From Octopus sinensis (lineage: Eukaryota), in assembly GCF_006345805.1 (NCBI RefSeq), contig NC_043024.1:1426001-1490000 (forward strand): DNA of 64,000 nt. The letters are read 5' to 3'. A program made the position numbers and the translations under genes. Each line of letters begins with the position of its first letter. Within the stretch, counting starts at the first letter, position 1. This document shows, piece by piece, positions 405 to 17,787 of this stretch. The notes beneath the pieces are model-generated. The model was not told where the DNA came from, did no database searches, and worked only from the letters and a program-made list of their open reading frames with translations.

Positions 405-412
405 TATATGTA

Positions 413-449
<37 letters not shown>

Positions 450-820
450 GTATGTATGTATATATGTATGTATGTATATATGTATGTATATATATATATG
501 TATGTGTATATATATATGTATGTATATATATATGTATGTGTATATATATATGTATGTATATATATATATATGTATGTATATATATATGTATGTATATATA
601 TATGTATGTATATATATATGTATGTATATATATATATGTATATATGTATATATGTGTGTGTGTATGTATGTATGTATGTATGTATATATATATGTATGCA
701 TGTATATATATGTATGTATATATATGTATATATATATATATGTGTATGTATATATATATGTATGTATGTATATATATGTATGTATGTATATATATATATA
801 TGTATGTATATATGTGTTTG

Positions 821-857
<37 letters not shown>

Positions 858-975
858 ATATATATATAAATATATATATATGTATGTATATATATGTGTG
901 TGTGTGTGTGTGTATGTATATATATGTTTTTGTGTGTGAGTATATATATGTGTGTATAAATATATGTATGTATAT
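405..975. repeat. Compound (TA)/(TG)/(TATG) microsatellite
   Basis: Direct reading; source of the YI/VC-rich pseudo-ORFs. Confidence 0.98.
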
Positions 976-1169
976 GATTTATTCCAAGCTGAGATATATT
1001 GCTTCAAAGTCGATGACTGACGACTGTTATAGTTTTAATACCAACCTGACATAAATATATTCGTACTATCATTATATGATATCGTACTATACTATATTAT
1101 ATTGTATCAATTTATATTATTATGTTATATTATTTTTCAGAAGGAAGAAGCTGAGATAATTCTGCAGCC

Positions 1170-1218
1170 ATGGAAGAACAAGTCAAGTATTCCATGATAA
1201 TTGATCTTAAGAGCAAAA
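1170..1218 (+). CDS. Kinase coding exon 1 ([16 protein letters not shown]); exon begins at 1141
   Basis: Acceptor tatttttcag ends at 1140; gccATGG Kozak context; in-frame upstream TGA at 1152-1154; donor AAA|gtgagt, phase 1. Confidence 0.75.
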
Positions 1219-4200
1219 GTGAGTCTTTGACCGAATTCTTTCTCTCTCTTTCACTCTTATTTTATTCTGCCTCATTGATTGATTGATCTTTTCATCATCA
1301 TCATCATCATCAAGCATCCGCTTTCCATGCTAGCATGGGTTGTGCGGGTCAACTGGGGTCTGTGAAGCTGGAAGGCTTCGTCAGGCCCAGTCAGATCTGG
1401 CAGTGTTTCTATGGCTGGATGCCCTTCCTAACGCCAACCACTCTGTGAGTGTAGTGGGTGCTTTTTACGTGCCACCCGCACAGGTGCCAGACAGAGCTGG
1501 CAAACGGACACGGACGGATGGTGCTTTTTACGTGCCACCCACACAGGTGCCAGACAGAGCTGGCAAACGGCCACGAACAGATGGTGCTTTTACGTGCCAC
1601 CGACACGGGGCCAGACAGAGCTGGCAAACGGCCACAAACGGACGGTGCTTTTACGTGTCACCGGCACGGGGGCCAGCCGAGGCTGGCAACGGACACGAAC
1701 GGATGGTGCTTTTACGTGCCACCGACACGGGGCCAGACAGAGCTGGCAAACGGCCACAAACGGACGGTGCTTTTACGTGTCACCGGCACGGGGGCCAGCC
1801 GAGGCTGGCAACGGACACGAATGGATGGTGCTTTTACGTGCCACCGACACGGGGCCAGACAGAGCTGGCAAACGGCCACAAACGGACGGTGCTTTTACGT
1901 GTCACCGGCACGGGGGCCAGCCGAGGCTGGCAACGGACACGAACGGATGGTGCTTTTACGTTCCACCGACACGGGGCCAGACAGAGCTGGCAAACGGCCA
2001 CAAATGGACGGTGGTTTTACGTGTCACCGACACGGGGCCAGACAGAGCTGGCAAACGGCCACGAACGGATGGTGCTTTTACGTGCCACCGGCACGGGGCC
2101 AGTCAGAGCTGGCAAACGGCCACGAACGGATAGTGCTTTTACGTGCCACCGGCACGGGGCCAGACAGAGCTGGCAAATGGCCACGAACAGATGGTGCTTT
2201 TACGTGCCACCGACACGGGGCCAGACAGAGCTGGCAAACGGCCACAAACAGATGGTGCTTTTACGTGCCACCGGCACGGGGCCAGGCGAGGCTGTTAATT
2301 TTATTTGATCTTTTATGGTTTCGTAAGATAGAACAGAAGGTAATGAGCTGACCGATTCGTTAGCATGTCGGACAAAATGCTAAGTGGAGTTTCTTCTGGT
2401 TCTGTCTGTTCTGAGTTCAGATCTGGCTGAGGTCACCTTTGCCTGGACCAGTGTTGTGTTCTTGAGCAAGACACTTTATTTCATGTTGCTCCAGTTCACT
2501 CAGCTGTAGAAATGAGTTGTGGCAATGTCACTGGTGTCAAGCTGTATCGGCCCCTTTGCCTTTCCCTTGAACAACATCAATGGCATGGAGAAGGAAGAAT
2601 GACATGCATGGGTGATTGCTGGTTTTCCACAAAACAACCTTGCCCAGACTTGTAACTCAGAGGGGGACTTTCTATAGTGCAATCCCATGGTCCTTCATGA
2701 CTGACTGGGATCTTTACCTTTTTATATTTAGAGTACATCTTTTCTTGTTTCTCACAAGGCATTCATTAAAAAAGACAAAATAGGCGCAGGAGTGGCTGTG
2801 TGGTAAGTAGCTTGCTAACCAACCACATGGTTCCGGGTTCAGTCCCACTGCGTGGCATCTTGGGCAAGTGTCTTCTGCTATAGCCTCGGGCCGACCAAAG
2901 CCTTGTGAGTGGATTTGGTAGACGGAAACTGAAAGAAGCCTGTCGTATATATGTATATATATATATGTGTGTGTGTATATGTTTGTGTGTCTAGCATCGC
3001 TTGTCCCTCTAGCATTGCTTGACGACCGATGCTGGTGTGTTTACGTCCCCGTCACTTAGCGGTTTGGCAAAAGAGACCGATAGAATAAGTGCTGGGCTTA
3101 CAAGGAATAAGTCCCGGGGTCGATTTGCTTGACTAAAAAAGGTGGTGCTCCAGCATGGCCGCAGTCAAAATGACTGAAACAAGTAAAAGAGTAAAGAGTA
3201 TAATGACTAACGAATCAGAGATAAATTAGTCATGTGCATGCGTTTTGGAAATGGAATGAATGGCAGATTCTTTGACACCAAACTTGTTCCCACAGAAGCT
3301 AATCTCTTGACGAGATCTACCTTTTCCAGGTGCATTTATATGTTTTCTGTCCAATGGTGCTATCATGACAGCTGTGGGTACATAAATCTGTATAACAAAA
3401 CGCACCAGATCCTTGCATGGTCATGTAGAAATATGCAAAAGTCTGTGCATTCTGGATGGCAGAGAAATGTGGTTGGTTTCAGGGGCAAGATTTTGCAATA
3501 TAAACAGAATCTTTGACTGATTGCTGACTCTTGCCATCACAGATCAGTCTGTGATAAGCATAACAAGGTTTGCAATTGGGTGTACCAAGTTATTCTGGAT
3601 CAATGATGAAAGAATTGGTGGTTAACGAGGCTGCATGTATTATTAAAATTGTTTTTTCTTAATATTTATAAAGTAGTAGCAGTATTGCCCGGGTTTGTAA
3701 GGGAAATAACTATATAAGCATTTTTAGAGAGTTATAGCCAAAAATAGCAAAAAATGCATTAAAAATGGGAAAAAAATTATGGTAAATTTTTTTTTAAATT
3801 GTTGACTCATCGTAGACATTTTTAGAGAGTTACTTCCCTTATATAATAGCGAAAAAAATGCATTCAAATGGAAAAAAATCATGGTAAATTTTTTTTTAAA
3901 TCGTAGACGCGCGCTAATACCCAGAAGGGCTCGATATGAATCACGACTATAAGATACCCGGTTTTGGTTAAACTTCACCGCAAAATGTGGGAGTAGTTAG
4001 GAATCTAAATCGTAGGAGACACACACAACTTGACTTTTATATATAAAGATTTTAAACATAAACATAATAACCATTTTTCTTTCTTTTTTTCAGATCTGCC
4101 AGATGTCATAGAAGTACCACCCACAGGTAAGGTATCTTTGATATTCTTCTGGAAAGTTTTGTGATCGTTAGTTGTTCTGGGCTTGATTGTAATTTTATAA

Positions 4201-5588
4201 ATAAAGCTTTATCATCATCGTTTAATGTCCACTTTCCATGCTGGCATGGGTTGGACGATTTGACTGAGGACTGGCAAACCAGATGGCTGCAACATGCTCC
4301 AATCTTGATCTGGCAGAGTTTCTACAGCTGGATGCCCTTCCTAATGCCAACGACTCCGAGAGTGTAGTGGGTGCTTTTTACATGCCACCGGCACGAGGGC
4401 CAGTCAGGCAGTACTGGCAACGGCCACGCTCAAATGGTGTTTTTTATGTGCCACCTGCACAGGAGCCAGTCCGGCGGCACTGGCAACGACCTCACTCGAA
4501 TGTTTTTTCACGTGCCAGTAAGGCGACACTGGTAACGATCACGCTATAAGTTCATCATCGTTTAACGTCCGTTCTCCATGCTAGCATGGGTTGGACGGTT
4601 CGACTGGGGATCTGGGAAGCCAGAAAGCTGCACCAGGCTCCAGTCTTATCTGGCAATGTTTTTACAGCTGGATGCCCTTCCTAACGCCAACCCCTCTCTG
4701 AGTGTAGTGGGTGCTTTTTACGTGCCACCTGCACAGGTGCCAGGCGAGGCTGGCAGTCGGATTGGTGCATTTTACGTGCCACCAGCACGGAAGCCAGTCG
4801 AGGCGGCACTGGCTTCGGCCACGATTCGGATGGTATAAGTTCAAATCCAGTCAACAGTTCCATACACATTCGGGAATAAGACACCTGATAATAATTGGCA
4901 AACTACTGATTTACTGAAATGCAGCAAGTTCAAATCCCATCTCGCACCATTTGTGACATTTATTAGAATTTATTTAAAAAGTATTATAAACACAAACATA
5001 TTGACAAATTTTTGTTTTTTTTGTTTTCAGATGTGAAAAATGAGGCGGAAGTAAATCCGGCCCCGGCTGTTGGTAAGTTCCTTTTGATGTTGTTTTGGGG
5101 AAGTTCCACCCCCACCCACCCACCCACCCCAGGTGGCTGTTCTGGGTTTACTTGTCTGTCATTTTATTAATAAAGGTTATAAGTTCAAATCCAGTCGACA
5201 GTTACATACACATTCAGGAATAAGACGACTGATGATGATCATCAATCAAACTAGTCATTGATTGAAACGTACTGAGTTCAAATTCCATAGATGCATCTAG
5301 GGGTATGACCCCCCCCCCCCTGATGACTACTACAGATGAAACAAAATGAAAAGTGTATATATATATATATATATCACTGTCATCACCGTGACCGACCAGG
5401 CTATCAGATGTTGCTACACATCGCTGGTCACAATGCACTTTGCATTGTTTTAGCCTTCAACTGACGCCACCCCACTGGCTAAGCGAGCAGGCTCAACGGA
5501 AGAAAGAGTGAGAGAAAGGGTGGTGAAAGAGTACAGCAGGGACCGCCACCACCACCCAAAAAAATTCCAGACCGTGTGCCTATAGTAG

Positions 5589-5622
<34 letters not shown>

Positions 5623-7397
5623 TATTCAAGTCAAACACACACACTGGTAGAATCGTTTGCACGTGGGGCGAAATGCCTAGTGGTATTTCATCTGCCACTA
5701 TGTTCTGAGTTCAGGTTCTGCCAAGGTTGACTTTACCTTTCATCCCCTCCCCCAAAATTGCTGCCCTTCTGGCAAAATCTGAAACCATTATTATTATTAT
5801 TATTAATTAGTATTGTTTATTGTTGTTGTTGTTGTTTTGTTTAGATACTTCAGATAGGAACATTGTGAACTTGGGTGTTGTGAGAAGAAATGTTCCGGAC
5901 GGTCGCCATAGTTACAAGTAAATATCTGCCTCCTTTTTTCTTGTTATTTCCTTTCCATCGACCTTTTCTGACTTTCATTTAAGAGACACAAAGAGGAACG
6001 GCAAAATTCCTCTCAGCAGAATGGTTAGAACTCCCCAAAGCCCCCTCAAATGTCCCCCACAAAGAAATCCAACGTTCATCCAAATACTTCCAAGTATCTG
6101 CAACAGAAACCAAGCTCGTGGATGTCATGCTTGGATTGGTTGAAGATGAGGTTCATAGGCACAGGTGTGACAGTGTGGTAAGAAACTGTCTTTGTAACCA
6201 CATGGTTCCAAGTTCAGTCCCACTGCATGACTGCTTGGGCAAGTGTCTTCTGCTGTAGCCCCAGGTTGACCAAAGACTTGTGAATGGATTTGTTTGACAA
6301 GAACTACAAAATACCAGTCATACAAGCAGTGTCGTTCACTTTGAGTCTTCTGCAGGAACATGTCTGACCTTGGGGAAATATTAATTTGTTTGGAAACAGG
6401 TGAGGGTCGTCAATAGGGAGGGTCCCTGGCTGTACAAAGTCTATTGCAGTAAATTTTGTCTGACCCCTGCAAACATGGAGAAGTGGGAAGTTTCACAACC
6501 AAACATTGGCAATTTGAAAAGGGAATTCTGGCAGGGTTCATAATATCCGTGGCTCTCTTCATGGTGGCCATGGGCCTTCTGCTTTGACATGAGAGGAAAG
6601 CGATCAAGAGAAGATGAAACTGATGGTAGAACAAGGAATCCAGCCTGCAGTGCCTTCATTGATGGCATCATCATAATGACAATCCAGCATCCCTGAACTC
6701 ATTGGAGAAGATGGTTCTGTGGTCATGTATTGAAATTCAACTCTGGGAAATCTTGAAGCCTGAATATCCCGAAGAAAAAACTGATGACATTTTCAGCATT
6801 GCCTTTTTTTTAATGCTTTCATCATCGTTTAACGTCCGCTTTCCATGCTGGCATGGGTTGGACGGTTCAACTGGGGTCTGGGAAGCCCGAAGGCTGCACC
6901 AGGCCAGTCAGATCTGGCAGTGTTTCTACAGCTGGATGCCCTTCCTAACGCCAACCACTCCGAGAGTGTAGTGGGTGATTTTATGTGCCACCGACACAGG
7001 TGCCAGACGAGGCTGGCGAACGGCCACGCTCGGATGGTGTTTTTTACGTGCCACCGGCACGGAGGCCAGTCAATGCCGTACTGGCTACGGCCACGTTCGG
7101 ATGGTTTTCGTATGTGCCACCGGCACTGGTACCTCAAAACTACAAATTCCATTTGATTAATAATACTGTTTTTCACCTGTTTGACCCTATTTGGATTTTT
7201 TGTTTGTTTCCTCTTTTGCCTCAAATTCTACTCACATTCTTTGTGTAAATTTTACCAATGTATGTGTGTGTGTGTGTGTGTAACGGTATAATCTAGCAGT
7301 ACCTATAATACTACAACTGGAAAGCACCAGGTGTAATCTGAAGGTGGACAAGCTTTATACTGCACCCTTCTGTGTTCTTAACAGAATATGCCATAAC

Positions 7398-7429
<32 letters not shown>

Positions 7430-7436
7430 TATATAT

Positions 7437-7485
<49 letters not shown>

Positions 7486-7513
7486 TATATATATATACAT
7501 ATATTTATATATA

Positions 7514-7546
<33 letters not shown>

Positions 7547-7695
7547 GTTATATATATAGTTTTATATATATATATATTATATATATATATAGGATAAAAT
7601 TCTTTGAAAAAAATTATTCTATCAATGGCCAGCATATTAAAAAATACCTTTATAGGTTAAATTTATAAACAACTTATAAGTTTATAAGTTGTATG

Positions 7696-7753
<58 letters not shown>

Positions 7754-10700
7754 GAGAGAGTTAGACGTGGTGTACAGATATTGAATATTGAGAACGAAAA
7801 AGTCGCCAGAGTTTTGGAAAAAATATTTTTATTTATTCATTATAATTAGCGCAAGTGCTAATGATAATGAATGAATGAAAAACACTTGTTCCCCAAAATT
7901 CTGGCAACCTCCTTTTTTTCTCAACACACATAGATATATATATATATATATAAAAAGCTTCATGTTTTGTTTTCTTTACAGAAACCTCTTACATGGCAGT
8001 ACTGACGACATCTTGAGATTGCTTGAGCACCGAATGCAATATCCGGATACGGCTGTCGTCCTCAAGGAAGAGGTAAGAATGAAGGCAATACATTTCTGAT
8101 GAATTCATAGAGTTGTTGGCATTAAAAGGATTCTTTAAACTTACAAATGGACTTGAAATAAATCTTTTTCTTTTTAGAACATTGCCTCTTGAGAGACATT
8201 ATCTCTCGAAAGAGTTGTTCTTCACTCCTGCTCCAGAGCGTCGGCTGCGGGGTCACTCCGAAAAGCTCTATCTATGACGATTTCATCTCAATCGAAGGAG
8301 AGGGGGCTTTCTCTGTCCGGGTTGCAGATCCGTGGAATAAGCTGCCGGACGAGATGGTGAAGATGCTGACGACCGCTCGGTTCAAAGTCTCTCTTGACCA
8401 GAAATGGCCTGAACTCTTTGTATGACCACCCTCCCTGTACATAACTCCCTGTCCTCCTACATGGCCTTGCTTTTACTTTTTGAGTCAATAAAAATTGAAT
8501 TGAATTGAATTGAATTAAAGCTATAAATTAATGGCCATCGACTGAGGTCCTGGTGACCTTTGTGGGTCCATATAAGATTTCGTGGTTAGAAGTTTATCTG
8601 CAATAAAAATGGTTGTATTTCTACAATACACGAAATATTTTAACAATTTCTCGTACAGTGAGGTGCAGGTGTGGCTGTGTGGTAAGAAGCTTGCTTCACT
8701 TAGTCATGCTAAGTGACTCACTTGGTTGTGAGAATTGGTGTTTGGTGGGGCGCATCTCGCCACCAAACTTTGTGACAATTTTGAAAATTCGACCAATTTG
8801 TGGAGGATTTTTTGTGTTCCTGCGGCTACTGTGACCTGGAGTACCTATTTCTTTACTACCTACAAGGGGCTAAACACAGAGGAATCAAACAAGGACAGAC
8901 AGATGGATTAAGTCGATTATATCGACCCCAGTGCATAACTGGTACTTAATTTATCGACCTCCAAAAGGATGGAAGGCAAAGTTGACCTCGGCGGAATATG
9001 AACTCAGAACGTAACGGCAGACGAAATACGGTTAAGCCTTTCGCCCGGTGTGCTAACGTTTCTGCCAGCTCGCCACCTGTGTGGAGTACCATTTTTTGGA
9101 ATACCTGTGGCCCAGGATTACCGAGTGGCCGGAATTGTGTTGCCGTGACTTGAACTGTCTTCCTTCATTCTTGCTGATTATTTTTGACTTTATTTAGACT
9201 TTTTGTTTGAACTATTTTTCGGATTCCCTTTTCTGCAAGCATGGCAAAAAAGGCAAACACTGCATTGGAGTGGGAGATTGTACCCGGCAAAGCAGTGGGT
9301 AAAAAACTTCAATGAGAGAACGGTGGTTTTGAAGATGTATTCCAAGTCTCTCGACACCATTTCCGTGTTCCCTCAAATGGAAATAGAAAAGGAGTTGGCA
9401 GAATATCTGCCAACTATAAGTCCTAGGGTTGATTTCTTCAACTAAAGCCCCTTTAAAGCAGTGCTCCAGCATGACCACAAATGACTTAAACATGTAGAAG
9501 AAAGAATAAAAAAGAGTTCTTTATAATATTTAATTATGAAAATGTAATAAAATTACACAGATATTGTTTTGAGCTGAGTGAGGGTGCTAGAGTCCCTTGT
9601 TCAAAAATATAAGGACACAGATCGTGTCGTATAGCCAGCTGGAGACGAATGTCTCCTGGGGCTAAATTACAGCAACATCCGTCCTAAACCAGGACTGCCA
9701 TATTATGTTGGCAAACAATCTTTACTCCAAAGTTCTGTTGCTGAATATCTCTCCTTGTGAGATTTACAAATAGTAATTTTCTAATGTAATAGAATTGTTT
9801 AAAACATCAAATGGTTATGGGGATTCCAGCAGAGTAAAATAGGGTCCTTAGGCACAAAATGGCTGAGAACCCCTTCTTTAACTAATGGCCTTCAACTTTT
9901 TGAAATTAATAAAAATTTCCAAAATTTTCGAAAGCAGTTTCTGAGTATTGAACCTTGATACATGTTACTCTACTCTCCTCCTAATTACCTGGCTCCCTCT
10001 CACTAACTATCCTGTTCTCACTCAACTGACCCCTTTTTATCTGTTTTTATTCTTCCACAGCTATGTCTTGAAGATGGTTATTTGACCCAAGGGAGTTTCA
10101 CTCCCGGAGGATTTGCAACATCCGTTGACCTTTGCCTCGACTTCAGAAGTTCTCGAAACTATGTCAGGAAAGAAGTAATTTTCATTTTCCTATCTTCTCC
10201 ATTTCCATTATTGTTGTTTTAAATTAAAATTCCTTTTTTTTTTTTCTTTGAGAGTTTGTTCCCATTGGATGGTCATTGTCAGCTGGTCTCTTGCACTATG
10301 ACCACAGCTTGACCAAACAGTGGTATGTGTGTGGAATTTCATTGACAGAAATTTTGAATTTTAAGAGGCCCATTGTGTGTGTGTGTGTGTGTTTATATAT
10401 ATGTGTGTGTGTGTGTATAAGAGGTTATGGTGTCATTGAGTAAAGCATGAAACAGCTGGAAGACCTATCTATAAATGTTCTAATATCTACACAGCCTTAG
10501 TTTTTTTTATCTCATTACGCAAAAAATTCTTATATATATGTACATATAAACAATTGCAGCATGAAAGGTGTTTGTAAACCATTTAAGAAACACACAAAAA
10601 CCGTTCGATTCACTTCAACATTTAAGTTTAATTTGTCAAAATATTTTCGTCACTTTGAGACCGCGACCTCTTCACTGAAGATCTTTGAGGGTTTCGCTTC

Positions 10701-12662
10701 CAGTTTGGGAATTGACAGCTATACCAATCCTCCTGCTGTTAGTTGTTCAAAGGATAAAGGTGAAATATTAACTTGCTTTGAAGCAGGCAAGTACGAGTGA
10801 ACCGGAAGAACATCAGGCTTCAGAAAACCTGCCTCAACAAAGTTCATCTGATGACCTATAGAAGGATGGAGAAGCAGACATTAAATTCAATGATGATAAT
10901 TTTTCCCTGCCTTAACCAAACATCTTGTTTTTTGCCCCAGTAATTTCTATAATTTCCCTCTCATTTTTTTTTTTTACCAGATAAGAAGGAGCAAATTCAA
11001 GGCAAGAGAGGTAGAACACCTCTGTCGGCTGAACAGCCCTAACATTTCCAAAATTTTGGGGTTCTGCGTCAAAAGTGACTGCTATGAGATTCTCCTGGAA
11101 TATTGTGGTAAGTTGAAATTTGGTTTTGTTGTTGTGTATGTTGTTGTTTAATTATTTCACTGTTGTCGGTCGTTAGTGTGGAACCATAATGGATCATCAT
11201 CGTTTAACATCCGCTTTCCATGCTAGCATGGGTTGGACGGTCCGACTGGGGTCTGGGAAGCCAGGAGGCTGCACCAGGCTCCAGTCTGATCTGGCAGTGT
11301 TTCTACAGCTGGATGCCCTTCCTAACGCCAACCACTCCATGAGTGTAGTGGGTACTTTTTATGTGCCACCGGCATGGTGCCAGGCGAGGCTGGCAACAGC
11401 CACGATCGGATGGTGCTTTTTACGTGCCAGCGGCACGGAGGCCAGTCGGGCAATATCTGAAAAAGTTTTTAGCTGGCTATATTGACCTCAGTACATTATA
11501 ATTCATCTCTTTTTAATTATCATATGGCTGAGTCTCCCTTGGTGTAAAGGGGTGTAGCACACACAAAATACATACCAAGTTGACTTACGATTAAGGAAAA
11601 GGACAGACTTAAGCTTGTGGAAAATGAGTGACTCTCTTTTGATGCAGACACAACACAGGCCATGCTTCCAGGGTTTTTGGATAAAGTTTTCAGAAATAAC
11701 CCAAAAGGTTTACCATTAATTCTTTGAAATATTTGTGGCTCCTGCAAGTAAAGACTATTAAACGTATGTTGATTCCTGTTGGTTTCTCTACAGGCATGGA
11801 TCTGCATTCTGCTATGAAAATGGAATGGAATCCGATCATCGATCAACACCTGGAAAGTTTCATAACTCAGATTGCTGAAGCAATTTACCACTGCAACCAT
11901 CAGAATATCTTTCACCTTGATATCAAACGTAAGTCTCCAGGTCTTTTGGTTGTGTGTGTGTGTGTGTGATATTTTTTGTTGTTATTTACTTTCGGTACCT
12001 CTGTCCATCACTAACTTCATTGGCATCCAAAACTGGCAAGATCGATGCTGTCAGTGTATCACTTAAACTGTTGCCAAGCAAGACCTGCAGAAAGGATGTG
12101 AGCTGCAAAAGGATTCCGGTGGGATTATATTTGGGGGAAGAAGTAATGAGAATAGTAGTCGGTGTGGGGCTTAGAAGTTTGGACACAACACATATGTTGG
12201 GAAGAGAACAGGTGAATGGGTTGGGAGGTGGCATGGGACCAGCAAGTTCTGAGGAGCAGAGGCCATTATTAGAGGAGTAGAAAAGTCAGAGAGAGAGCAG
12301 AGACGGTACACTTGTGTGCAAGAGGCTGGAATATCAAATGGCTTTTCTCTGAATGTGGATTATGATGACTTTGCATGTGGCAGTTGATTGTTCCAGATGT
12401 GGGAGCAAACCTGCATTCTGGGCCCCATTTGTCAGGAAATGTTGAAACTTGGTGTAGAGTTGGAACTGAAGTACTTTCTGGTCCTGATGAGAAGGGCCAG
12501 TCTTTGAGAAAGAGTTCTAGCTGTATTAAGAATGTACTTTCACCAGGCGAGATTGTTGATGATAGGTGGGGCCCTAACATTTGGGGTGACCATAAAAAAT
12601 CCAGCATCATTTGTCAAGTGATGTTGGGGGACAAACACAGACACACAAGCATATACACACAC

Positions 12663-12695
<33 letters not shown>

Positions 12696-14727
12696 TATAT
12701 ATACGACAGGCTTCTTTCAGTTTCCATCTACCAAATCCACTCACAAGGCTTTGGTCGGCCTAAGGCTATAGTAGAAGACACTTGCCCAAGATGCCACGCA
12801 GTGGGACTGAGCCCAGAACCATGTGGTTTGTAAGCAAGCTACTTACCACATAGCCACTCCTGAGGGACAAGGCCTGAAGTTTTGGGGGAGTGCTAGTCAA
12901 TTACATCGACCCCAGTGCATAACTGGTATGTGTGAGTGTGTGTGTGTTTGACTATTTTTGTCTCATACGTATTTTATCCATTTTCATTCTACAGCCCAGA
13001 ATATTTGTGTCTACGCTTATCAAAACGGCATCCAACTAAAACTGACTGATTTTGGGGCATCAAAGAATGCCAACAACGAATTCTTCGGTGAAGGAGTTAC
13101 ACTGATGTATGCGGCACCTGAAATCCACTATGATTGTTGCAAGAAATTCCTGTTACAGTGTGACCGTAATTCTGAAAAATATCAAGGAGGTTGGTGTATA
13201 TATCTCTGTATCTATAAAATTCTTTGTCTGTCTGTTTGCTATGCATTCTCAAACAGCTCAACCAAATTAAATCAAATTTTACAAGTATTACACTTCACGA
13301 GTGTCATCACCTAAAGTTTTTTCGTTTGCATTAAAACAATATAACATTTTACAGAGATAATCTTTCTATAGTCAACTATTGTATAGGACATTTTATATCA
13401 TGACCATGATGTCACATTTTGTATCTGAGTATGTGCCTGTGAATCTGTGCGTGTTTCTGCTTTAGGTACATTATTAAATACACACACACATCTGGACATG
13501 CATATACATGTGACGACTGACATGTGTGAATGTATGTCTGTGTGTATCTGTCTTAGTATATGTATGTGAGTGTGTATGTGTGATAATTTTTATTTACATT
13601 TGGATTAAAACACACATACATATCTGTTCAATATCCTGTTGAATTTCTGAATACACTTCGACCCACTGGGATGCCACTGCATAACTTGACACTAAAACTG
13701 GATGCTCTCATTACGTTGCTTAGGAACCTTGACCCGTCTCACCTGTGTAAAGGAACTTGCTTAATTGTTGCTTCCATGAATCCCCATGTCCTACAGGCAA
13801 CAATCATAACAGGTAGTCACAAAGGAGAGAATGTCATTATTCCCAAAATTCCTTGAATTTAAGATGCTTCAGTTTCCAGTTAAACTAAGTTTTGATATTT
13901 CAATCAACAAATCCTAGGGTCAATCCCTCAAGGAAGCTGGACTTGATCTCTCTACTACCTTTTATCCAAATTTTAAGCTCAAAAGGATAGGGGGTCCCTT
14001 ATACACAAATGTTCCTTATACATGTTAAAATATGGTGTATATATATATATGTGTATAATTGTATAGGCAGCGAGGTTATTATTAATTATGAAATTATTCC
14101 CAACATCCTTCATGGTTATTACATGTGTGTATACATATTTGTGTTTTGCAGTTTTGGACATAACTCAACATTTCTGTAGCAAGTATCATACATGTTCAGT
14201 GACGGAGAAGTGTGACCTTTTCTCTGTTGGTTTGGTTTGTCTGTTCATTAAGTGTAAAAATGACCCATGGAAGTTGTTGATTAAACAAGTAGAGTACTGC
14301 ATTCCAAAAATGGTATTGTTCCTTCTAATTTTTCCACTGACTTCATCTAAAAAAATTTTTTTTTCTTTTTTGGTGCAGGCTAGAAGAATGGGTGGTTTGA
14401 ACTCACAGCCTCTACCCCATTGTAGTTGCACACACCTGTCAATTTTCCCTTCTGTTCTTCCTCTTCCCATCCTCCTGTCGTCCTTGCTCTCTTCTTCCTC
14501 CCTTTCTCCATAAAAATTTCTATCAAACGTTCTGCTTACCGTTTCTTGCTTGCAAATGCATCACCCAGGAACCCTTTCCAGATGTTACTGTCACCCAGGG
14601 AACTTGTATATGCTTGCTTGATTTGCTCGAAATAGCAGTCAAGTCTTCTTTAAATTCAGCTAACTCCTTTACAAAAAGAAGGAAACTTACTGACCCACAT
14701 GTGGATATACATACATGTGCCTTCATG

Positions 14728-14775
<48 letters not shown>

Positions 14776-15926: not shown

Positions 15927-15963
<37 letters not shown>

Positions 15964-16330
15964 AATTAAGGACTGAACACGAAAAGTGGACAGTCAACAT
16001 GCTAGATATAGACGTCAAATCGCCATTCTCCACAAAAGATTATGTTCTCAAATCAAACTCAGCACAAACCCAAGCAATAAACAAGTGAAAATATACGAAA
16101 TAAAATACTTATCCATGTACTGATCAGTTTCGGCTATTATTATCCGCAAGGATACCTGTAGCCTTCATCAGCATGGCCCGATATAAATGCAATTTGCTGG
16201 ACTAGATGTTGACTGTCCACTTTTCGTGTTCAGTCCTTAATTGGTATATATAAATATTTTAATCTTCGGATTCTTTTTTTAATATGCTAGAACACTGGTT
16301 TTAATTGATAAATATTGATTTCTACCCTTA

Positions 16331-16361
<31 letters not shown>

Positions 16362-17787
16362 GCTGTTGTTGTAATGTGACTCTCATTTCTTTTTACTTTG
16401 AAGTATTCTCGTTACCCGAATATAATGAAAGGCTTGGTTCAAGATGATTGGGGGGATTTGGCTTCCCTAATAAGCAGCTTATTGACTGGAGACCCTTCAG
16501 AGAGGTGTTCTGTGAACGAAATTTTTGTATTTATGAAGAGTAAGTATTTGAACTTCTGGATGTTGTAATTCTTAATCTTACATAATCTTAATCCTTTAGC
16601 ATTCGGATTACTCTGTGAAATTTAATGCTTATGTATTCACGTTGTTCTTGTAGCTTTGAGATTTAACGATGTAATGGGTTGCTTTTAGTACGTTGGGCAA
16701 AATACTTTGCACCATTTTGTCTGTCCTTGCGATCTGAGTTCAAATTCTGCCAAAGTCAACTTTGCCTTTCATCCTTTTGGGGTCAGTAAATTAAGTACCA
16801 GTTGAGTACTGGGGTTGATGTGATCGACTGTTCCTCTCCCCACAAATTTCGGTCCTTGTGGCCAATAAAGAAAGGATTATTATTATTAGGAGTAGGAGTA
16901 GCAGCAGCAGCAGTAGCAGCCATTCAAGAATTTGGACCTGGAGATCTCCATTTCCAGTGACTTCGAGGGCCACCTCCCAGTGGTGTCGGGGGTCAACGAA
17001 GAGCCCTCGACTACAAGACGACCAAGGTTTTTTTTTGTTTCCAAGGTCTGGAGACTCCCACCCCCAAGCCCTAGACCATCACCTAATCACCCTTACCCGT
17101 CTTGCTTAACAACAACAACAACAACAACAACAGCAGCAGTAGTAGTAGTAGTAGTAGTATAATCAGAATCTTGTACTGTATAAATTATTGAAAACCAAAA
17201 AAACTAACTGCAGGAGTGGCTGTGTGGTAAGTAGCTTGCCTACCAACCACATGGTTCCGGGTTCAGTCCCACTGCGTGGCACCTTGGGCAAGTGTCTTCT
17301 GCTATAGCCTCAGACCGACCAAAGCCTTGTAAGTAGATTTGGTAGATGGAAACTGAAAGAAGCCTGTCGTATATGTGTGTATGTGTTTGTGTTTGTCTCC
17401 CTAGCATTGCTTGACAACCGATGCTGGTGTGTTTACGTCCCCGTCACTTAGCGGTTCGGCAAAAGAGACCGATAGAATAAGTACTGGGCTTACAAAGAAT
17501 AAGTCCCGGGGTCGATTTGCTCGACTAAAGGCGGTGCTCCAGCATGGCCGCAGTCAAATGACTGAAACAAGTAAAAAAAAGAAGAAAAAAAAAGAAAAGA
17601 ACAAAAAAATGGAAATGAAATAATTAATTTGTTTTTATTTTATTAAATTTCAGAATTGATGGACAGCCAACAAGAAATGGATGTTCCGAATGGCACCCAG
17701 GTGGTAAACGAGGTGAATGCCGTCCAACCGATGGAGGATGACTCACAGAATTTACCGAATATTCCGAATATGGATTTACTTTTCTAG
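1170..17787 (+). CDS. Multi-exon Ser/Thr protein kinase, MAP3K8(Cot/Tpl2)/MAP3K14(NIK)-like, 12 coding exons, 429 aa predicted
   Basis: Hand-spliced exons 1170-1218, 4094-4126, 5031-5072, 5845-5917, 7982-8072, 10061-10174, 10981-11107, 11794-11928, 12995-13189, 14152-14312, 16404-16539 and 17654-17787 sum to 1290 nt. All introns are GT-AG with matching phases and there are no internal stops. Motifs: [10 protein letters not shown] (Gly loop), YVRK (beta3 Lys), REVE (alphaC Glu), [38 protein letters not shown]. The family call rests on remembered similarity to Cot/NIK and is less certain than the kinase call. Confidence 0.9.
1293..2292 (-). mobile_element. SINE-like family C copy ((GAT)n tail, RTE-like body) with a 14-unit internal 61-bp tandem expansion
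   Basis: (cat)n...ttccatgctagcatgggtt...ctggatgcccttcctaacgccaaccactc body shared with copies at about 4212, 4553, 6819, 11193, 21086, 48045, 51954, 55772, 56056, 59905 (reverse), 60319 and 62540. Confidence 0.9.
2450..2720 (+). mobile_element. SINE family F (V-SINE-like tgtgttcttgagcaagacac body)
   Basis: A reverse copy at 24360-24965 is split by a family B insertion with a 16-bp duplication aggttgtttatggaag (24431-24446, 24779-24794); a tRNA-like head is seen at 59366-59510. Confidence 0.7.
2782..3200 (+). mobile_element. tRNA-derived SINE family A, full length
   Basis: ggcgcaggagtggctgtgtggtaag head with a B-box-like ggttcagtccc, internal (TA/TG)n, tail gactgaaacaagtaaaagag; partial copies at 205-405, 6157-6300, 12600-12862, 25035-25345, 28545-28920, 34438-34610 and 57560-57715. 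Confidence 0.92.
3676..4049 (-). mobile_element. Non-autonomous Helitron-like element
   Basis: Minus strand begins TCtttatatataaaag...(gt)n, has an internal ~100-bp tandem duplication (3719-3800, 3817-3900) and ends in a degenerate cccgggcaatactgcta. Confidence 0.5.
4094..4126 (+). CDS. Kinase micro-exon 2 (33 nt, [11 protein letters not shown])
   Basis: ttctttttttcag acceptor, CAG|gtaagg donor, phase 1-1. Confidence 0.75.
5031..5072 (+). CDS. Kinase micro-exon 3 (42 nt, [14 protein letters not shown])
   Basis: ttgttttcag acceptor, TTG|gtaagt donor, phase 1-1. Confidence 0.75.
5373..5560 (-). mobile_element. SINE family E (shares its 5' body with family D, different tail)
   Basis: ccgtgaccgaccaggctatcagatgttgctacacatcgctggtcacaatg also at 50986-51250 and in reverse at 63172-63283. 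Confidence 0.75.
5845..5917 (+). CDS. Kinase exon 4 ([24 protein letters not shown])
   Basis: ttttgtttag acceptor, CAA|gtaaat donor; phase 1-2 bridges exon 3 to exon 5. Confidence 0.7.
6492..6765 (+). pseudogene. Decayed reverse-transcriptase fragment of an RLE-type (HERO/NeSL-like) non-LTR retrotransposon
   Basis: [31 protein letters not shown], then across frameshifts [14 protein letters not shown] (decayed FMDD) and [17 protein letters not shown]. Confidence 0.65.
7982..8072 (+). CDS. Kinase exon 5 ([31 protein letters not shown])
   Basis: tttctttacag acceptor, GAG|gtaaga donor, phase 2-0; resembles the Cot/NIK N-terminal extension. Confidence 0.85.
8200..8517 (+). mobile_element. CR1/L2-group LINE 3' end
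   Basis: [11 protein letters not shown]...[21 protein letters not shown]...FKVSLD C-terminus with a stop and frameshift; (AATTG)n tail. Confidence 0.8.
10061..10174 (+). CDS. Kinase exon 6 (subdomains I-II)
   Basis: tcttccacag acceptor, GAA|gtaatt donor; [38 protein letters not shown]. Confidence 0.9.
10981..11107 (+). CDS. Kinase exon 7 (subdomains III-V)
   Basis: tttttaccag acceptor, GTG|gtaagt donor; [42 protein letters not shown]. Confidence 0.92.
11794..11928 (+). CDS. Kinase exon 8 (subdomain VI, HLDIK)
   Basis: ttctctacag acceptor, AAC|gtaagt donor; GMDLHSAM...[20 protein letters not shown]. Confidence 0.93.
11990..12570 (-). pseudogene. Decayed non-LTR retrotransposon RT C-terminal fragment
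   Basis: [29 protein letters not shown]...CSHIW...IQRKAI...[14 protein letters not shown], broken by frameshifts. Confidence 0.6.
12995..13189 (+). CDS. Kinase exon 9 (DFG to APE and start of the insert)
   Basis: cattctacag acceptor; donor GAG|gttggt, with an alternative same-phase donor at 13165|gtaatt; PQNICV...[10 protein letters not shown]...TLMYAAPE. Confidence 0.9.
13202..13965 (+). mobile_element. Helitron-derived element with a PIF1-helicase fragment (13623-13960)
   Basis: [22 protein letters not shown]...[14 protein letters not shown]...[16 protein letters not shown], then [18 protein letters not shown]...GLDL; Helitron-like 5' sequence tctataaaa...gtctgtctgtttgctatgc. Confidence 0.85.
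14152..14312 (+). CDS. Kinase exon 10 (subdomain IX)
   Basis: gtgttttgcag acceptor, ATG|gtattg donor; ...[23 protein letters not shown]... Confidence 0.88.
15017..15236. mobile_element. piggyBac-type MITE
   Basis: TTAA|CCCCTTCGTTAC...GTAACGAAAGGG|TTAA; an internally deleted sister copy lies at 24078-24211. Confidence 0.85.
15574..15673 (-). ncRNA. Truncated hammerhead-ribozyme-like motif
   Basis: Minus strand: CTGATGA-GTGGCTATATTTA...TAAATATAGCCAC-GAAACAG, with a 13-bp perfect stem II; the 3' halves of stems III and I are missing. Confidence 0.6.
16113..16176 (-). ncRNA. Type-I hammerhead ribozyme (Penelope-like)
   Basis: Minus strand: CCATG-CTGATGA-A-GGCTA...TAGCC-GAAA-CTGATCAG-TA-CATGG; paired stems I and II, palindromic stem III. 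Confidence 0.8.
16404..16539 (+). CDS. Kinase exon 11 (subdomain XI)
   Basis: ctttttactttgaag acceptor, AGA|gtaagt donor; ...[22 protein letters not shown]... Confidence 0.88.
17209..17580 (+). mobile_element. SINE family A
   Basis: Near-identical to 2782-3200. Confidence 0.92.
17654..17787 (+). CDS. Kinase terminal coding exon (acidic C-tail ending NIPNMDLLF*)
   Basis: taaatttcag acceptor; phase 1 continues the frame to TAG at 17785-17787. Confidence 0.8.

What the first reader, a model, noticed from the sequence alone, without database searches (positions are those of the whole stretch)
1170..17787. Hidden 12-exon divergent Cot/NIK-like MAP3K
Seen: a complete, phase-consistent 429-aa kinase with all catalytic residues (Lys, alphaC Glu, HLDIKPQN Asp/Asn, DFG, APE). 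Established: MAP3K8 and MAP3K14 are non-RD kinases of NF-kB/ERK immune signalling with a conserved extension just before the kinase domain. Inference: [11 protein letters not shown]...[24 protein letters not shown] and NDPW match my recollection of that group, so this may be a fast-evolving, lineage-specific cephalopod immune-signalling kinase.
Basis: partly seen in the sequence, partly recalled or inferred. Interest (0 to 1): 0.75.

Follow-up and report, generated by a model that had tools for sequence, protein, structure and literature searches.

The report
Octopus NIK/Cot-like kinase gene
A real, transcribed and already annotated 12-exon octopus gene encodes a very divergent protein kinase of a mollusc-wide family whose segment before the kinase domain and predicted fold most resemble the vertebrate immune-signalling kinases Cot (MAP3K8) and NIK (MAP3K14), so it likely works as a self-activating upstream signalling kinase.

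Summary
Twelve GT..AG exons (1170-17787, + strand) splice into a 429-aa kinase. It is identical to an NCBI model named "calcium-dependent protein kinase 2 [Octopus sinensis]", so it is not hidden, only misnamed. Spliced contigs from four runs show six of the first seven junctions directly and imply the seventh.

The Cot/NIK idea gains real but indirect support. The protein alone resembles no kinase family specifically. It does fall, with 100% branch support, inside a family of at least 32 mollusc kinases (octopods, gastropods, bivalves). All share a non-RD H-x-D-I-K-P-x-N-x-C catalytic loop, a segment of about 45 residues before the kinase domain, and most a C-terminal "N-I/V-P-N/D-F-x-x-L" tail.

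- The family profile ranks MAP3K8 first among solved structures, with that segment aligned.
- A profile of the segment alone finds only NIK and MAP3K8 among kinases, at weak E-values (0.07 and 0.57).
- A confident AlphaFold model (pLDDT 85) has Cot and NIK as nearest folds, 3-4 Z units above all other kinases.

"Cephalopod-specific" is wrong, because the family is mollusc-wide. "Fast-evolving" is right (39% identity to Argonauta). An immune role is untested, and orthology to MAP3K8 versus MAP3K14 is unresolved.

The parts
1141..1169 (+). Last part of the 5' UTR, contiguous with exon 1
   Evidence: A spliced contig of run X1 lies on 1141-1218 and carries 51 further letters upstream that were not placed in 600-12600 (table 8).
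1170..1218 (+). Exon 1 (aa 1-17): ATG and the N-terminal 'IIDLK' motif shared with family members
   Evidence: Exact mapping. Joint 1218>4094 in 4 of 4 runs. Motif seen in alignment A2.
4094..4126 (+). Exon 2 (aa 17-28), in the predicted disordered N-terminus
   Evidence: Joints on both sides in 4 of 4 runs. pLDDT below 50.
5031..5072 (+). Exon 3 (aa 28-42), in the predicted disordered N-terminus
   Evidence: Acceptor joint is listed. The donor joint 5072>5845 is implied by contig arithmetic (148 nt = exons 2-4).
5845..5917 (+). Exon 4 (aa 42-66)
   Evidence: Joint 5917>7982 in 4 of 4 runs.
7982..8072 (+). Exon 5 (aa 66-96): pre-kinase extension. Predicted strand 67-71 (NLLHG), helix 73-81 (TDDILRLLE) and strand 89-93 (TAVVL)
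   Evidence: Aligned to the MAP3K8 extension by the family profile and to the NIK/MAP3K8 extension by the extension-only profile. Joint 8072>10061 in 4 of 4 runs.
10061..10174 (+). Exon 6 (aa 97-134): linker, strand beta1, degenerate glycine loop (TPGGFAT), beta3 with Lys133
   Evidence: Joint 10174>10981 in 4 of 4 runs.
10981..11107 (+). Exon 7 (aa 135-177): 'SKFKAREVE' with helix C Glu144, 'LNSPNI', 'EILLEYCG'
   Evidence: Joint 11107>11794 in 4 of 4 runs.
11794..11928 (+). Exon 8 (aa 177-222): helices D/E and the first part of the non-RD catalytic loop HLDIK
   Evidence: Covered by spliced contigs of 4 runs. The exon was used to find P0001.
12995..13189 (+). Exon 9 (aa 222-287): PQN-x-C, DFG, activation segment, APE, first helix of the insert after APE
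   Evidence: Single copy in the 2.72-Gb genome at this sensitivity.
14152..14312 (+). Exon 10 (aa 287-340): second helix of the insert, helix F with Asp308, 'NDPW'
   Evidence: Insert conserved in 4 of 4 cephalopod-clade proteins.
16404..16539 (+). Exon 11 (aa 341-386): C-lobe helices with Arg374 (GDPSERCS)
17654..17787 (+). Exon 12 (aa 386-429 plus TAG): predicted disordered tail ending in the family's C-terminal motif ([12 protein letters not shown])

Best explanation
This is a real, transcribed, already annotated 12-exon octopus gene for a 429-residue Ser/Thr protein kinase that belongs to a mollusc-wide family and is predicted to fold like the vertebrate MAP3Ks Cot (MAP3K8) and NIK (MAP3K14), so it likely acts as a self-activated, phosphorylation-independent upstream signalling kinase.

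Shown:
- the gene model and 7 of its 11 junctions;
- all catalytic residues, and a non-RD catalytic loop (HLD);
- membership of a family of at least 32 mollusc kinases, defined by H-x-D-[ILVM]-K-P-x-N-x-C, a pre-kinase segment of about 45 residues, an insert after APE, and in most members a C-terminal [ILVMF]-P-[NDK]-F-x-x-L tail;
- the octopod proteins are short forms (about 430 aa against 590-810 aa) on long branches.

Predicted: the pre-kinase segment forms strand-helix-strand (67-71, 73-81, 89-93) that joins the N-lobe sheet. This is the arrangement described for NIK, where the extension holds helix C in the active position without activation-loop phosphorylation.

Inferred, not tested:
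- the kinase is constitutively competent and is controlled by abundance or by partners, perhaps through the conserved C-terminal tail;
- it phosphorylates a downstream kinase of a MAPK or NF-kB type cascade.

Whether the family is orthologous to MAP3K8, to MAP3K14, or is a third branch of that kind is open.
For: Gene:
- Exact 12-exon mapping and translation.
- Identical NCBI protein.
- Spliced contigs in 4 runs of 4 studies.
- Pkinase 1.5e-28.
- Single copy.

Family:
- An exhaustive HMMER search gave only 3 proteins at E<=1e-30: self, Argonauta P0007 at 1.3e-74, and P0008 at 5.3e-39. After these came single-domain mollusc kinases at 1e-23 to 1e-13.
- The catalytic-loop signature occurs in 33 of 189 stored proteins, and neither pattern occurs in the other 156.
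- hhalign of the cephalopod clade against 13 long members: E 3e-55 over columns 60-386, extension included.
- A kinase-domain-only tree puts 4 cephalopod and 28 other mollusc rows in one clade at SH-aLRT 100, against 40 other kinases.

Link to Cot/NIK:
- The family profile A2 ranks MAP3K8 (4y83) first of 177,635 PDB sequences (1.6e-38, 136 bits; next is 128 bits). Its alignment starts 45 positions before the kinase domain.
- The extension-only profile A6 gives 16 hits at E<=10: 11 NIK, 1 MAP3K8 and 4 non-kinases.
- The same profile hits 34 of 39 family proteins and no true non-family kinase among 197 stored proteins.
- AlphaFold model: pLDDT 84.9, with residues 61-400 above 90.
- Foldseek ranks 1-10 are all Cot or NIK.
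- VIA-align second look: ranks 1-20 are 17 NIK and 3 Cot entries, Z 27.4-29.4, model range from residue 65; next is ASK1 at 25.4.
- Search of 48,161 representative chains without Foldseek: Cot Z 28.7, NIK Z 27.6, next ASK1 24.5.

Mechanism by analogy:
- In NIK the 60-residue extension is required for activity, adds strands bN1 and bN2 and helix aN2 to the N-lobe, and holds helix C active.
- NIK is a non-RD (HGD) kinase that is active without phosphorylation.
- Both points come from passages of PMC3431628.
Against: - P0001 alone does not list MAP3K8 or NIK among the 60 best of 952 PDB matches; CDPK2, DCLK1 and Aurora A lead at about 1e-13.
- The cephalopod-only profile A3 does not list them either among the 60 best of 779.
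- The N-terminal 135 residues of P0001 alone find nothing in PDB.
- The profile of the 13 long members (A4) puts a CDPK marginally above MAP3K8 (121.7 against 120.9 bits). The kinase domain itself is therefore no closer to MAP3K8 than to CAMK-type kinases.
- The extension-only E-values (0.072 and 0.57) are not significant one by one.
- Identity to Cot and NIK in the structural alignments is only 17-20%.
- AlphaFold was trained on solved structures, so the predicted extension fold is not fully independent of them.
- The protein-language-model atlas places both P0001 and a long member next to SBK1, SBK2, PDIK1L, TOPK and PIM clusters, not NIK or Cot.
- No tree with MAP3K8, MAP3K14 or SBK sequences could be made.
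- Activity, substrates, tissue and any immune role are untested.
Confidence: 0.7

Rival explanations
1. The mollusc family, including this gene, is an independent lineage-specific branch of the kinase superfamily. On this view its resemblance to NIK and Cot in the pre-kinase segment is convergent or over-read: a short strand-helix-strand that the structure predictor models on what it has seen. The protein would still be an active kinase, but with no MAP3K-type role implied.
For: - Kinase-domain scores to MAP3K8 are no better than to CAMK kinases.
- Extension-only E-values are 0.072 and 0.57.
- Identity to Cot and NIK is 17-20%.
- The oyster kinome paper leaves 28 kinases unclassified as possibly oyster-specific (passage of PMC4883820).
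Against: - Three different kinds of test point to the same two kinases out of hundreds of solved kinase families: whole-profile ranking with the extension aligned, the extension-only profile, and the fold searches with a 3-4 Z gap.
- The sequence match falls on the strand that the NIK paper calls bN2, at the same position relative to beta1.
Confidence: 0.15
2. It is a divergent member of the SBK / PDIK1L ('NKF') type of small orphan Ser/Thr kinases, as the NCBI name of the O. bimaculoides orthologue (SBK1) suggests.
For: - The O. bimaculoides orthologue is named SBK1.
- Atlas feature searches list SBK1, SBK2 and PDIK1L clusters at score 0.99 for P0001 and for a long family member.
- No SBK chain was among the listed PDB matches, so the PDB-based tests cannot weigh this family.
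Against: - The atlas scores are the same (0.98-0.99) for many unrelated kinase clusters, and the tool describes them as leads only.
- The source names given to family members are inconsistent: CDPK2, SBK1, PLK4-like, MLCK-like, fhkA, STK10-like, NLK-like. This is the pattern expected of weak best hits.
- The pre-kinase segment and the fold point to NIK and Cot.
- From recall, not tested here: SBK1 is an RD kinase without such an extension.
Confidence: 0.08
3. It is a calcium-dependent / CAMK-group kinase, as its NCBI product name says.
For: The best single-sequence PDB hits are CDPK2 (4.4e-14) and DCLK1. CDPK and SNF1 lead for the cephalopod profile.
Against: - Pfam finds only the kinase domain, with no EF-hand or calmodulin-binding region.
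- The E-values are generic for any kinase pair.
- In the tree the protein sits inside the mollusc family at 100% support.
- The fold searches put CaMK and DAPK 3-4 Z units below Cot and NIK.
Confidence: 0.04
4. It is a decaying or non-catalytic (pseudokinase) copy.
For: - The glycine loop is degenerate (TPGGFAT).
- Sequence change is very fast (39% identity to Argonauta).
- The C-lobe is barely recognisable by sequence (best E 0.044).
Against: - The frame is open across 12 exons.
- Every catalytic residue is kept in all four cephalopod-clade proteins and in the whole family.
- Spliced transcripts of depth 67-200 occur in four runs.
- The fold is predicted with confidence.
Confidence: 0.03

Closest known systems
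MAP3K8 (Cot / Tpl2), solved as 4y83, 4y85, 5iu2
   Same: - It is the top solved sequence for the 17-member family profile, aligned from 45 positions before the kinase domain (YGT..E.L and G-I/V-L-L...P..G-R-Y) to the end of the domain.
- The catalytic loop is non-RD (HHDIKPSN in the chain against HLDIKPQN here).
- It is the nearest or joint-nearest fold of the model: Foldseek rank 1; Z 28.7 to 29.1 with 276-285 residues aligned at rmsd 2.6-2.9.
   Different: - Identity is only 17-19%.
- The octopus protein alone does not rank it among the 60 best PDB hits.
- This protein has a two-helix insert after APE (aa 263-297) that the chain lacks, and lacks a 10-residue stretch the chain has before beta1.
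- This protein has a conserved C-terminal N-I/V-P-N-x-D-x-L tail and a Cys after the catalytic Asn.
- Orthology was not tested.
MAP3K14 (NIK), solved as 4dn5, 4g3d, 6wpp and others
   Same: - It is the best hit of the extension-only profile ([16 protein letters not shown] against tGVildedLcpedGrY; E 0.072).
- Fold Z is 27.4-29.4, with the model aligned from residue 65 to NIK residue 342.
- The extension elements come in the same order, strand-helix-strand.
- It is a non-RD kinase (HGD, passage of PMC3431628).
   Different: - Identity is 18-20%.
- It is not among the 60 best hits of any whole-length sequence or profile search here except for P0012 (rank 29).
- NIK is a protein of about 950 residues with TRAF3-binding and regulatory regions (recalled) for which no counterpart was looked for. 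The octopus protein has only about 60 disordered residues before the extension.
Mollusc family of uncharacterised kinases (e.g. Haliotis P0025, Mizuhopecten P0027, Dreissena P0021, Lottia P0064)
   Same: - It shares the catalytic-loop signature, the pre-kinase segment, 'FVRK', 'FK..EV', 'EIL.EY.G', 'LK.TDFGS.K', the insert after APE and the C-terminal tail.
- The two groups form one clade at 100% support.
- hhalign E is 3e-55.
   Different: - The octopod proteins are 429-434 aa against 590-810 aa. They lack the long low-complexity regions on both sides.
- They have a longer insert after APE.
- They sit on much longer branches.
Calcium-dependent protein kinase 2 (the current NCBI product name)
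   Same: It is the best single-sequence PDB hit (4mvf, 4.4e-14) over the N-lobe and catalytic loop.
   Different: - There is no EF-hand domain.
- This protein is non-RD, whereas the chain is HRD.
- The fold Z of CAMK-type kinases is 3-4 units lower than that of Cot and NIK.

Membership tests
Eukaryotic protein kinase (Pkinase, PF00069) | Kinase domain above Pfam's gathering score, with Lys (beta3), Glu (helix C), HxD..N, DFG and APE | tested here: met
   Pkinase 100.4 bits against a cut-off of 31.7. K133, E144, H217, D219, K221, N224, D240, G242 and D308 are invariant in 72 kinases; E264 and R374 are nearly invariant.
Mollusc H-x-D-I-K-P-x-N-x-C kinase family (unnamed) | Catalytic-loop signature together with the C-terminal [ILVMF]-P-[NDKC]-[FILM]..L tail | tested here: met
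   P0001 has HLDIKPQNIC and ...NIPNMDLLF. The signature occurs in 33 of 189 stored proteins, and neither pattern occurs in the other 156.
Mollusc H-x-D-I-K-P-x-N-x-C kinase family (unnamed) | Groups with the family on a tree made from the kinase domain alone | tested here: met
   32 family rows form one clade at SH-aLRT 100 against 40 other kinases. The cephalopod clade is sister to 28 gastropod and bivalve rows.
NIK / Cot type MAP3K (MAP3K14, MAP3K8) | Non-RD catalytic loop (H-x-D with x not Arg) | tested here: met
   HLD at 217-219. MAP3K8 shows HHD in the alignment. NIK is HGD according to PMC3431628.
NIK / Cot type MAP3K (MAP3K14, MAP3K8) | Pre-kinase extension that joins the N-lobe (strand, helix, strand): by predicted structure | tested here: met
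   The model has strand 67-71, helix 73-81 and strand 89-93 at pLDDT above 90. The structural alignments to NIK and Cot begin at model residue 65-66, while other kinases mostly begin at 91-99. This is a prediction, not a solved structure.
NIK / Cot type MAP3K (MAP3K14, MAP3K8) | Pre-kinase extension recognisable by sequence | tested here: inconclusive
   The family profile aligns it to MAP3K8. The extension-only profile finds NIK at E 0.072 and MAP3K8 at E 0.57 and no other kinase. P0001 residues 1-135 alone find nothing.
NIK / Cot type MAP3K (MAP3K14, MAP3K8) | These kinases are the closest solved relatives by sequence of the kinase domain | tested here: inconclusive
   MAP3K8 is first for the 17-member profile and second for the 13-member profile. 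It is not listed among the 60 best for P0001 or for the 4-member cephalopod profile.
NIK / Cot type MAP3K (MAP3K14, MAP3K8) | Orthology: groups with MAP3K8 or MAP3K14 on a tree with other STE and 'Other' kinases | not tested
The last word-based search returned only Haliotis relatives.
NIK / Cot type MAP3K (MAP3K14, MAP3K8) | Phosphorylates a MAP2K or IKK and acts in NF-kB/ERK signalling; partner regions (p105/ABIN2 for Cot, TRAF3/IKKalpha for NIK; recalled) | not testable with these tools
   This needs biochemistry. No search for partner motifs was made.
Calcium-dependent protein kinase (CDPK) | EF-hand calcium-binding domain fused to the kinase | tested here: not met
   Pfam finds only kinase-type families in P0001 and P0002. 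The protein ends 35 residues after the kinase domain.
SBK / NKF1 | Groups with SBK1-3 by sequence or tree | not tested
   The only pointers are atlas feature similarity and one source name. No SBK sequence or solved structure was available to compare.

The most novel reading that the evidence does not exclude
Molluscs carry an unrecognised family of NIK/Cot-type MAP3Ks. It would be the 'missing' upstream kinase of non-canonical NF-kB or Tpl2-ERK-like signalling that in-silico immunome surveys could not find. Octopods keep a single, stripped-down, constitutively competent version that evolves unusually fast, as expected of a gene in a host-pathogen arms race. A conserved C-terminal tail would serve as its regulatory handle.
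Probability: 0.3. Interest if true: 0.65.

Novelty: new variant of a known kind. Interest (0 to 1): 0.45.

Why it matters
**Annotation.** The gene model already exists, but it and its relatives carry contradictory product names: CDPK2, SBK1, PLK4-like, MLCK-like, fhkA, STK10-like, NLK-like, or uncharacterised. A single family definition would correct these names. It would rest on the catalytic-loop signature, the pre-kinase segment and the C-terminal tail.

**Biology.**
- An Aplysia immunome survey states that orthologues of MAP3K14/NIK or MAP3K8/Tpl2 could not be identified (passage of PMC9334734).
- The oyster kinome paper never mentions Cot or NIK in its main text and leaves 28 kinases unclassified (PMC4883820).
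- If this family is the mollusc counterpart, the question of whether lophotrochozoans have NIK- or Tpl2-like signalling becomes directly testable with named genes.
- The octopod short form (about 340 structured residues) would be a convenient minimal construct for testing the "extension keeps a non-RD kinase active" mechanism outside vertebrates.

**Limits.** My literature checks were two full-text searches plus passages of four papers. They do not show that the link has never been published.

Tried and rejected
**Sequencing runs**
- No listed holder is on record as RNA. The runs used are guessed to be RNA, and their spliced contigs are what was relied on.
Only the left part was then laid, so junctions 8>9 to 11>12 have no read evidence.
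- Tissue and condition of the runs are coded, so nothing can be said on haemocytes or white body.

**Sequence searches that did not show Cot or NIK**
- P0001 alone.
- P0001 residues 1-135 (only a glucanase and Rab31, at E above 0.05).
- The P0001 C-terminal 169 residues (CDPK2 at 0.044, TAK1 at 0.24).
- The cephalopod-only profile A3.
- P0012 alone placed MAP3K8 only at rank 12 and NIK at rank 29.

**Other searches**
- The word-based search with the whole protein found only the two Octopus proteins.
- With alignment A4 it found only Haliotis relatives and no named MAP3K8 or MAP3K14.
- The atlas searches gave SBK, TOPK, PDIK1L and PIM clusters, which are leads only.
- Naming the next-best non-family hits gave unnamed metagenome or protist kinases and one 'PLK1'.
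- The own-genome search with a long-member kinase piece returned other kinases. The best was an intronless NEK-like RD kinase (L001). This is a weak test for a second family member, because short exons score poorly.
- An alignment query to the own genome is not accepted.
- The search of earlier findings returned nothing three times.

**Structure and ideas dropped**
- The first AlphaFold job, with 2 sequences, failed (pLDDT 30.5) and was not used.
- I considered that the Cys/His-rich insert after APE might bind zinc. I dropped this because the cysteines are not conserved in Argonauta or P0008.
- The literature searches on an octopus kinome and on cephalopod orphan kinases gave nothing relevant.

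Full report
**What is in the sequence**

The window is G000:C28:1426001-1490000 of a 2.72-Gb genome in 13,516 contigs.

A search with the translation of exon 8 for longer proteins returned two proteins:
- a 429-aa protein, P0001, 100% identical to the query, which NCBI calls "calcium-dependent protein kinase 2 [Octopus sinensis]";
- a 434-aa protein, P0002, which NCBI calls "serine/threonine-protein kinase SBK1 [Octopus bimaculoides]".

A script then looked for chains of GT..AG exons that spell P0001 exactly. The solution that reads straight through the stop codon is a single model of 12 exons: 1170-1218, 4094-4126, 5031-5072, 5845-5917, 7982-8072, 10061-10174, 10981-11107, 11794-11928, 12995-13189, 14152-14312, 16404-16539 and 17654-17787. 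The joined 1290 nt translate to P0001 plus a stop. The gene is not hidden; it is annotated under a misleading name.

**Transcription**

No run is on record as RNA. Fourteen small runs guessed to be RNA hold 18-30% of the sampled words of a stretch that is 18% exon.

The part 600-12600 was then laid for four runs from four studies and two organism labels. Each run has one contig of 967-1936 nt, depth 67-200, that skips the introns.
- Joints 1218>4094, 4126>5031, 5917>7982, 8072>10061, 10174>10981 and 11107>11794 are listed in all four runs, all GT..AG.
- The joint 5072>5845 is not among the rows shown. In run X1 the contig carries exactly 148 nt between exon 1 and exon 5, which is the sum of exons 2-4.
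- The four junctions of exons 8-12 have no read evidence here. They rest on the catalytic loop being completed across 8>9 and on gap-free alignment of three relatives across the others.

The gene is single copy at the sensitivity used. No other match to P0001 exists in the window, and exon 9 matches only itself in the genome.

**What kind of kinase: the protein alone**

- Pfam sees only a kinase domain (1.5e-28), and mainly its first two thirds.
- Against solved structures, P0001 alone gives generic hits: CDPK2 at 4e-14, DCLK1, Aurora A. MAP3K8 and NIK are not among the 60 listed.
- The N-terminal 135 residues and the C-terminal 169 residues alone give nothing useful.
- A word-based search finds only the two Octopus proteins.
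- The atlas lists SBK1, TOPK and PDIK1L clusters at scores it also gives to many other kinase clusters.

Taken alone, the protein looks like an orphan.

**The family**

An exhaustive HMMER search of 1.84 billion representatives gave 16,289 hits at E<=1e-3, but only three at E<=1e-30:
- the protein itself;
- P0007 (432 aa, 39% identical over the full length), from Argonauta hians;
- P0008 (398 aa, 32% identical), from an unnamed contig.

Below these come many multi-kinase fusions, whose scores are inflated, and a set of single-domain proteins of 590-810 aa with only moderate Pkinase scores.

Aligning 13 of the single-domain proteins with the four cephalopod-clade proteins shows shared features well outside the usual kinase motifs:
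- an "x-x-D-L-K" near the N-terminus;
- a pre-kinase segment "h-G-T/S-..-D/E-..-L ... t-G-V/C-I/V-h-.-E-.-L-.-P-.-d-G-.-Y";
- "FVRK" for the beta3 lysine, "FK..EV" at helix C, and "EIL.EY.G";
- the catalytic loop H-L/H/M-D-I/V-K-P-x-N-x-C, which is non-RD and is followed by a Cys;
- "LK.TDFGS.K";
- an insert after APE;
- the last residues "G-N-I/V-P-N/D-F-x-x-L".

Further tests of the family:
- The catalytic-loop pattern is present in 33 of 189 proteins then held. Neither it nor the tail pattern is present in the other 156.
- Every member that carries a source name is a mollusc: Octopus (2 species), Argonauta, Haliotis (3 species, two loci), Lottia, Patella, Babylonia (three loci), Mya, Mytilus, Dreissena (two loci), Mizuhopecten, Sinanodonta and Potamilus.
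- Their names are "uncharacterized" or an assortment of unrelated kinases.
- hhalign of the cephalopod clade against the 13 long members gives E 3e-55 over columns 60-386, pre-kinase segment included.
- A tree was made from the kinase domain only (P0001 residues 108-385; 260 columns; 72 rows). It places the 4 cephalopod and 28 other mollusc rows in one clade at SH-aLRT 100 against 40 of the best-scoring other kinases. The cephalopod clade (support 84) is sister to the rest (98) and sits on long branches, with 1.39 changes per site between Octopus and Argonauta.

The gene is therefore the octopod member of a mollusc-wide family. "Fast-evolving" is right and "cephalopod-specific" is not.

**The link to Cot and NIK: sequence**

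- A profile of the 17 aligned proteins ranks MAP3K8 (4y83) first of 177,635 distinct PDB sequences (1.6e-38, 136 bits). Its alignment begins 45 profile positions before the kinase domain, with "kvsYGTkealsell...tGvilkeklapedgrY" against "SVRYGTVEDLLAFA...SGILLNMVITPQNGRYQ". The next hit (a CDPK, 128 bits) begins at the kinase domain.
- With the 13 long members only, the CDPK is marginally ahead (121.7 against 120.9 bits).
- With the four cephalopod proteins only, neither MAP3K8 nor NIK is listed among the 60 best.
- The specific signal therefore sits in the pre-kinase segment, not in the kinase domain.
- To test the segment on its own I aligned 23 segments of 42-54 residues, all ending before the glycine loop, and searched PDB with that 51-position profile. 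Of 16 hits at E<=10, 11 are NIK (best E 0.072, "[21 protein letters not shown]", directly before the NIK kinase domain), one is MAP3K8 (E 0.57, chain 12-58) and four are non-kinases. No other kinase appears.
- These E-values are not significant singly. The same profile is specific, however: it hits 34 of 39 family proteins and none of the true non-family kinases among 197 stored proteins. The two formal exceptions are Mytilus fragments of a family member.

**The link to Cot and NIK: predicted structure**

A model from two sequences failed (pLDDT 30.5). A model from 72 aligned kinases (32 family members plus 40 others) reached mean pLDDT 84.9 and pTM 0.79. Residues 61-400 are above 90, and residues 1-57 and about 400-424 are disordered.

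| Search | Cot and NIK | Next best |
|---|---|---|
| Foldseek, 350,542 chains | Ranks 1-10: six Cot and four NIK chains; TM 0.56-0.59 over 334-349 columns | CaMKII at rank 13, TM 0.47 |
| VIA-align second look, 1000 chains | Ranks 1-20: 17 NIK and 3 Cot entries; Z 27.4-29.4, rmsd 2.7-3.1, 274-287 residues, model range from residue 65-66 | ASK1 at Z 25.4, aligned from residue 91-99 |
| VIA-align without Foldseek, 48,161 representative chains | Cot first (Z 28.7, 276 residues, rmsd 2.6) and NIK second (Z 27.6, 283 residues, rmsd 2.9) | ASK1 24.5, MST2 24.3 |

The predicted extension is strand 67-71 (NLLHG), helix 73-81 (TDDILRLLE) and strand 89-93 (TAVVL). The NIK structure paper (passages of PMC3431628) describes:
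- a 60-residue extension with strand bN1, helix aN2, a loop, and strand bN2 (residues 377-381) that extends the N-lobe sheet;
- an extension that holds helix C in the active position and is required for activity;
- NIK as an HGD non-RD kinase that is active without phosphorylation.

The sequence match falls on that bN2 strand and the linker to beta1. The sequence and structure evidence therefore agree on the register.

The caveat is that AlphaFold learned from solved structures. The model is a prediction and is not independent proof.

**How it most likely works**

Shown:
- an expressed gene;
- a complete catalytic apparatus;
- a non-RD loop;
- a conserved pre-kinase segment;
- a conserved tail.

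Predicted:
- the segment is an integral part of the N-lobe, as in NIK and Cot;
- two extra helices (263-276 and 282-297) lie between APE and helix F.

Inferred:
- the enzyme sits in an active conformation without activation-loop phosphorylation;
- it is regulated by abundance or by partners, perhaps through the C-terminal "NIPNMDLLF" tail and the N-terminal "IIDLK";
- it phosphorylates a downstream kinase of a MAPK- or NF-kB-type pathway.

I put 0.7 on the statement as a whole: gene, family, and NIK/Cot-type architecture. I put about 0.35 on the MAP3K/NF-kB role.

**Rivals**

| Rival | Probability | Basis |
|---|---|---|
| Independent mollusc-specific branch, with an over-read resemblance to NIK and Cot | 0.15 | The kinase domain itself is no closer to MAP3K8 than to CAMK kinases. 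|
| SBK/PDIK1L-type kinase | 0.08 | Atlas leads and one source name. The PDB-based tests cannot weigh it, because no SBK chain appeared among the listed matches. |
| CAMK or CDPK kinase | 0.04 | No EF-hand, and lower fold scores. |
| Pseudokinase | 0.03 | Contradicted by conserved catalytic residues and by expression. |

**Known or new**

- An Aplysia immunome survey says orthologues of MAP3K14/NIK or MAP3K8/Tpl2 could not be identified by InterProScan (passage of PMC9334734).
- The oyster kinome paper has no occurrence of Cot or NIK in its main text and kinases ambiguous, possibly oyster-specific (PMC4883820). I did not read its supplementary tables, which may list these genes.
- A deep-sea mussel study names one gene MAP3K14 from automatic annotation (passage of PMC11299980). 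Its relation to this family is unknown.
- I found no paper describing this family. This rests on searches only.

My verdict:
- The gene model is already known.
- Its family assignment appears to be new.
- The family is a divergent variant of the NIK/Cot kind.

**Surroundings**

- The introns and the rest of the window are repeat-rich. They hold microsatellites, a 61-bp tandem array in intron 1, and many copies of one interspersed element.
- Apart from the kinase gene, the only protein-family match among the seven open frames scanned is a Tc1/mariner-type transposase remnant at 58145-59170.
- No paralogue or obviously related gene lies within the 64 kb.

Noticed in passing
window 1457-2285 (intron 1) and 4370-4517 (intron 2): A tandem array of a 61-bp unit (13.5 copies, 87% matches) and a related 66-bp unit (2.3 copies). 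Contigs of all four runs pile up on it at very high summed depth, as expected of a genome-wide repeat.
   Followed up: partly
window about 1287-1448, 4131-4367, 4550-4700, 6663-6971, 11177-11485, 21125-21487, 51850-52233, 55802-56152, 60296-60694: Many copies, in both orientations, of one interspersed element. One of its frames reads '...[41 protein letters not shown]...'. It is probably a SINE-like repeat and fills much of the introns.
   Followed up: no
window 58145-59170 (+): A Tc1/mariner-type transposase remnant. One open frame matches HTH_Tnp_Tc3_2 and the Sleeping-Beauty HTH. The next frame, separated from it by a stop, matches DDE_3.
   Followed up: partly
window 407-975, 7398-7591, and many stretches after 22000: Long (TATG)n / (TA)n / (CA)n-type microsatellites that produce the long 'YIYIYI' open frames in all six frames.
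   Followed up: no
window 11833, 11855, 11861 (exon 8): Contigs of the runs labelled organism B differ from the window at two or three of these places (C>T, A>C, C>A). One organism A run (X1) shows none, and the other (X10) shows C>T at 11833. This looks like species or allele differences, not A-to-G editing.
   Followed up: no
window 11907-12075: A low-depth contig (2.6 against 200 for the spliced contig) runs from exon 8 into intron 8. This indicates a small share of unspliced or intron-retaining transcript.
   Followed up: no
L001 3657-4475 (G000:C2, about 190519656-190520474, +): An intronless 272-aa open frame for an RD kinase (HRDLKPQNILV, ISDFGLAR) that looks NEK-like. It was found as the best genome match to a long-family kinase piece and is unrelated to the finding.
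   Followed up: partly
family alignment A2, last 12-16 residues and first 10-20 residues: Two short motifs are conserved across the mollusc family outside the folded part: an N-terminal 'x-x-D-L-K(-x-L-K)' and a C-terminal 'G-N-I/V-P-N/D-F-x-x-L'. No function is known for either; they may be docking sites.
   Followed up: partly
proteins P0021/P0194 (Dreissena), P0079/P0121/P0195 (Babylonia), P0025/P0039 (Haliotis): Gastropods and bivalves hold two or three loci of the family, whereas the octopus genome showed one. The family seems to have expanded, or been retained, unevenly among molluscs.
   Followed up: no
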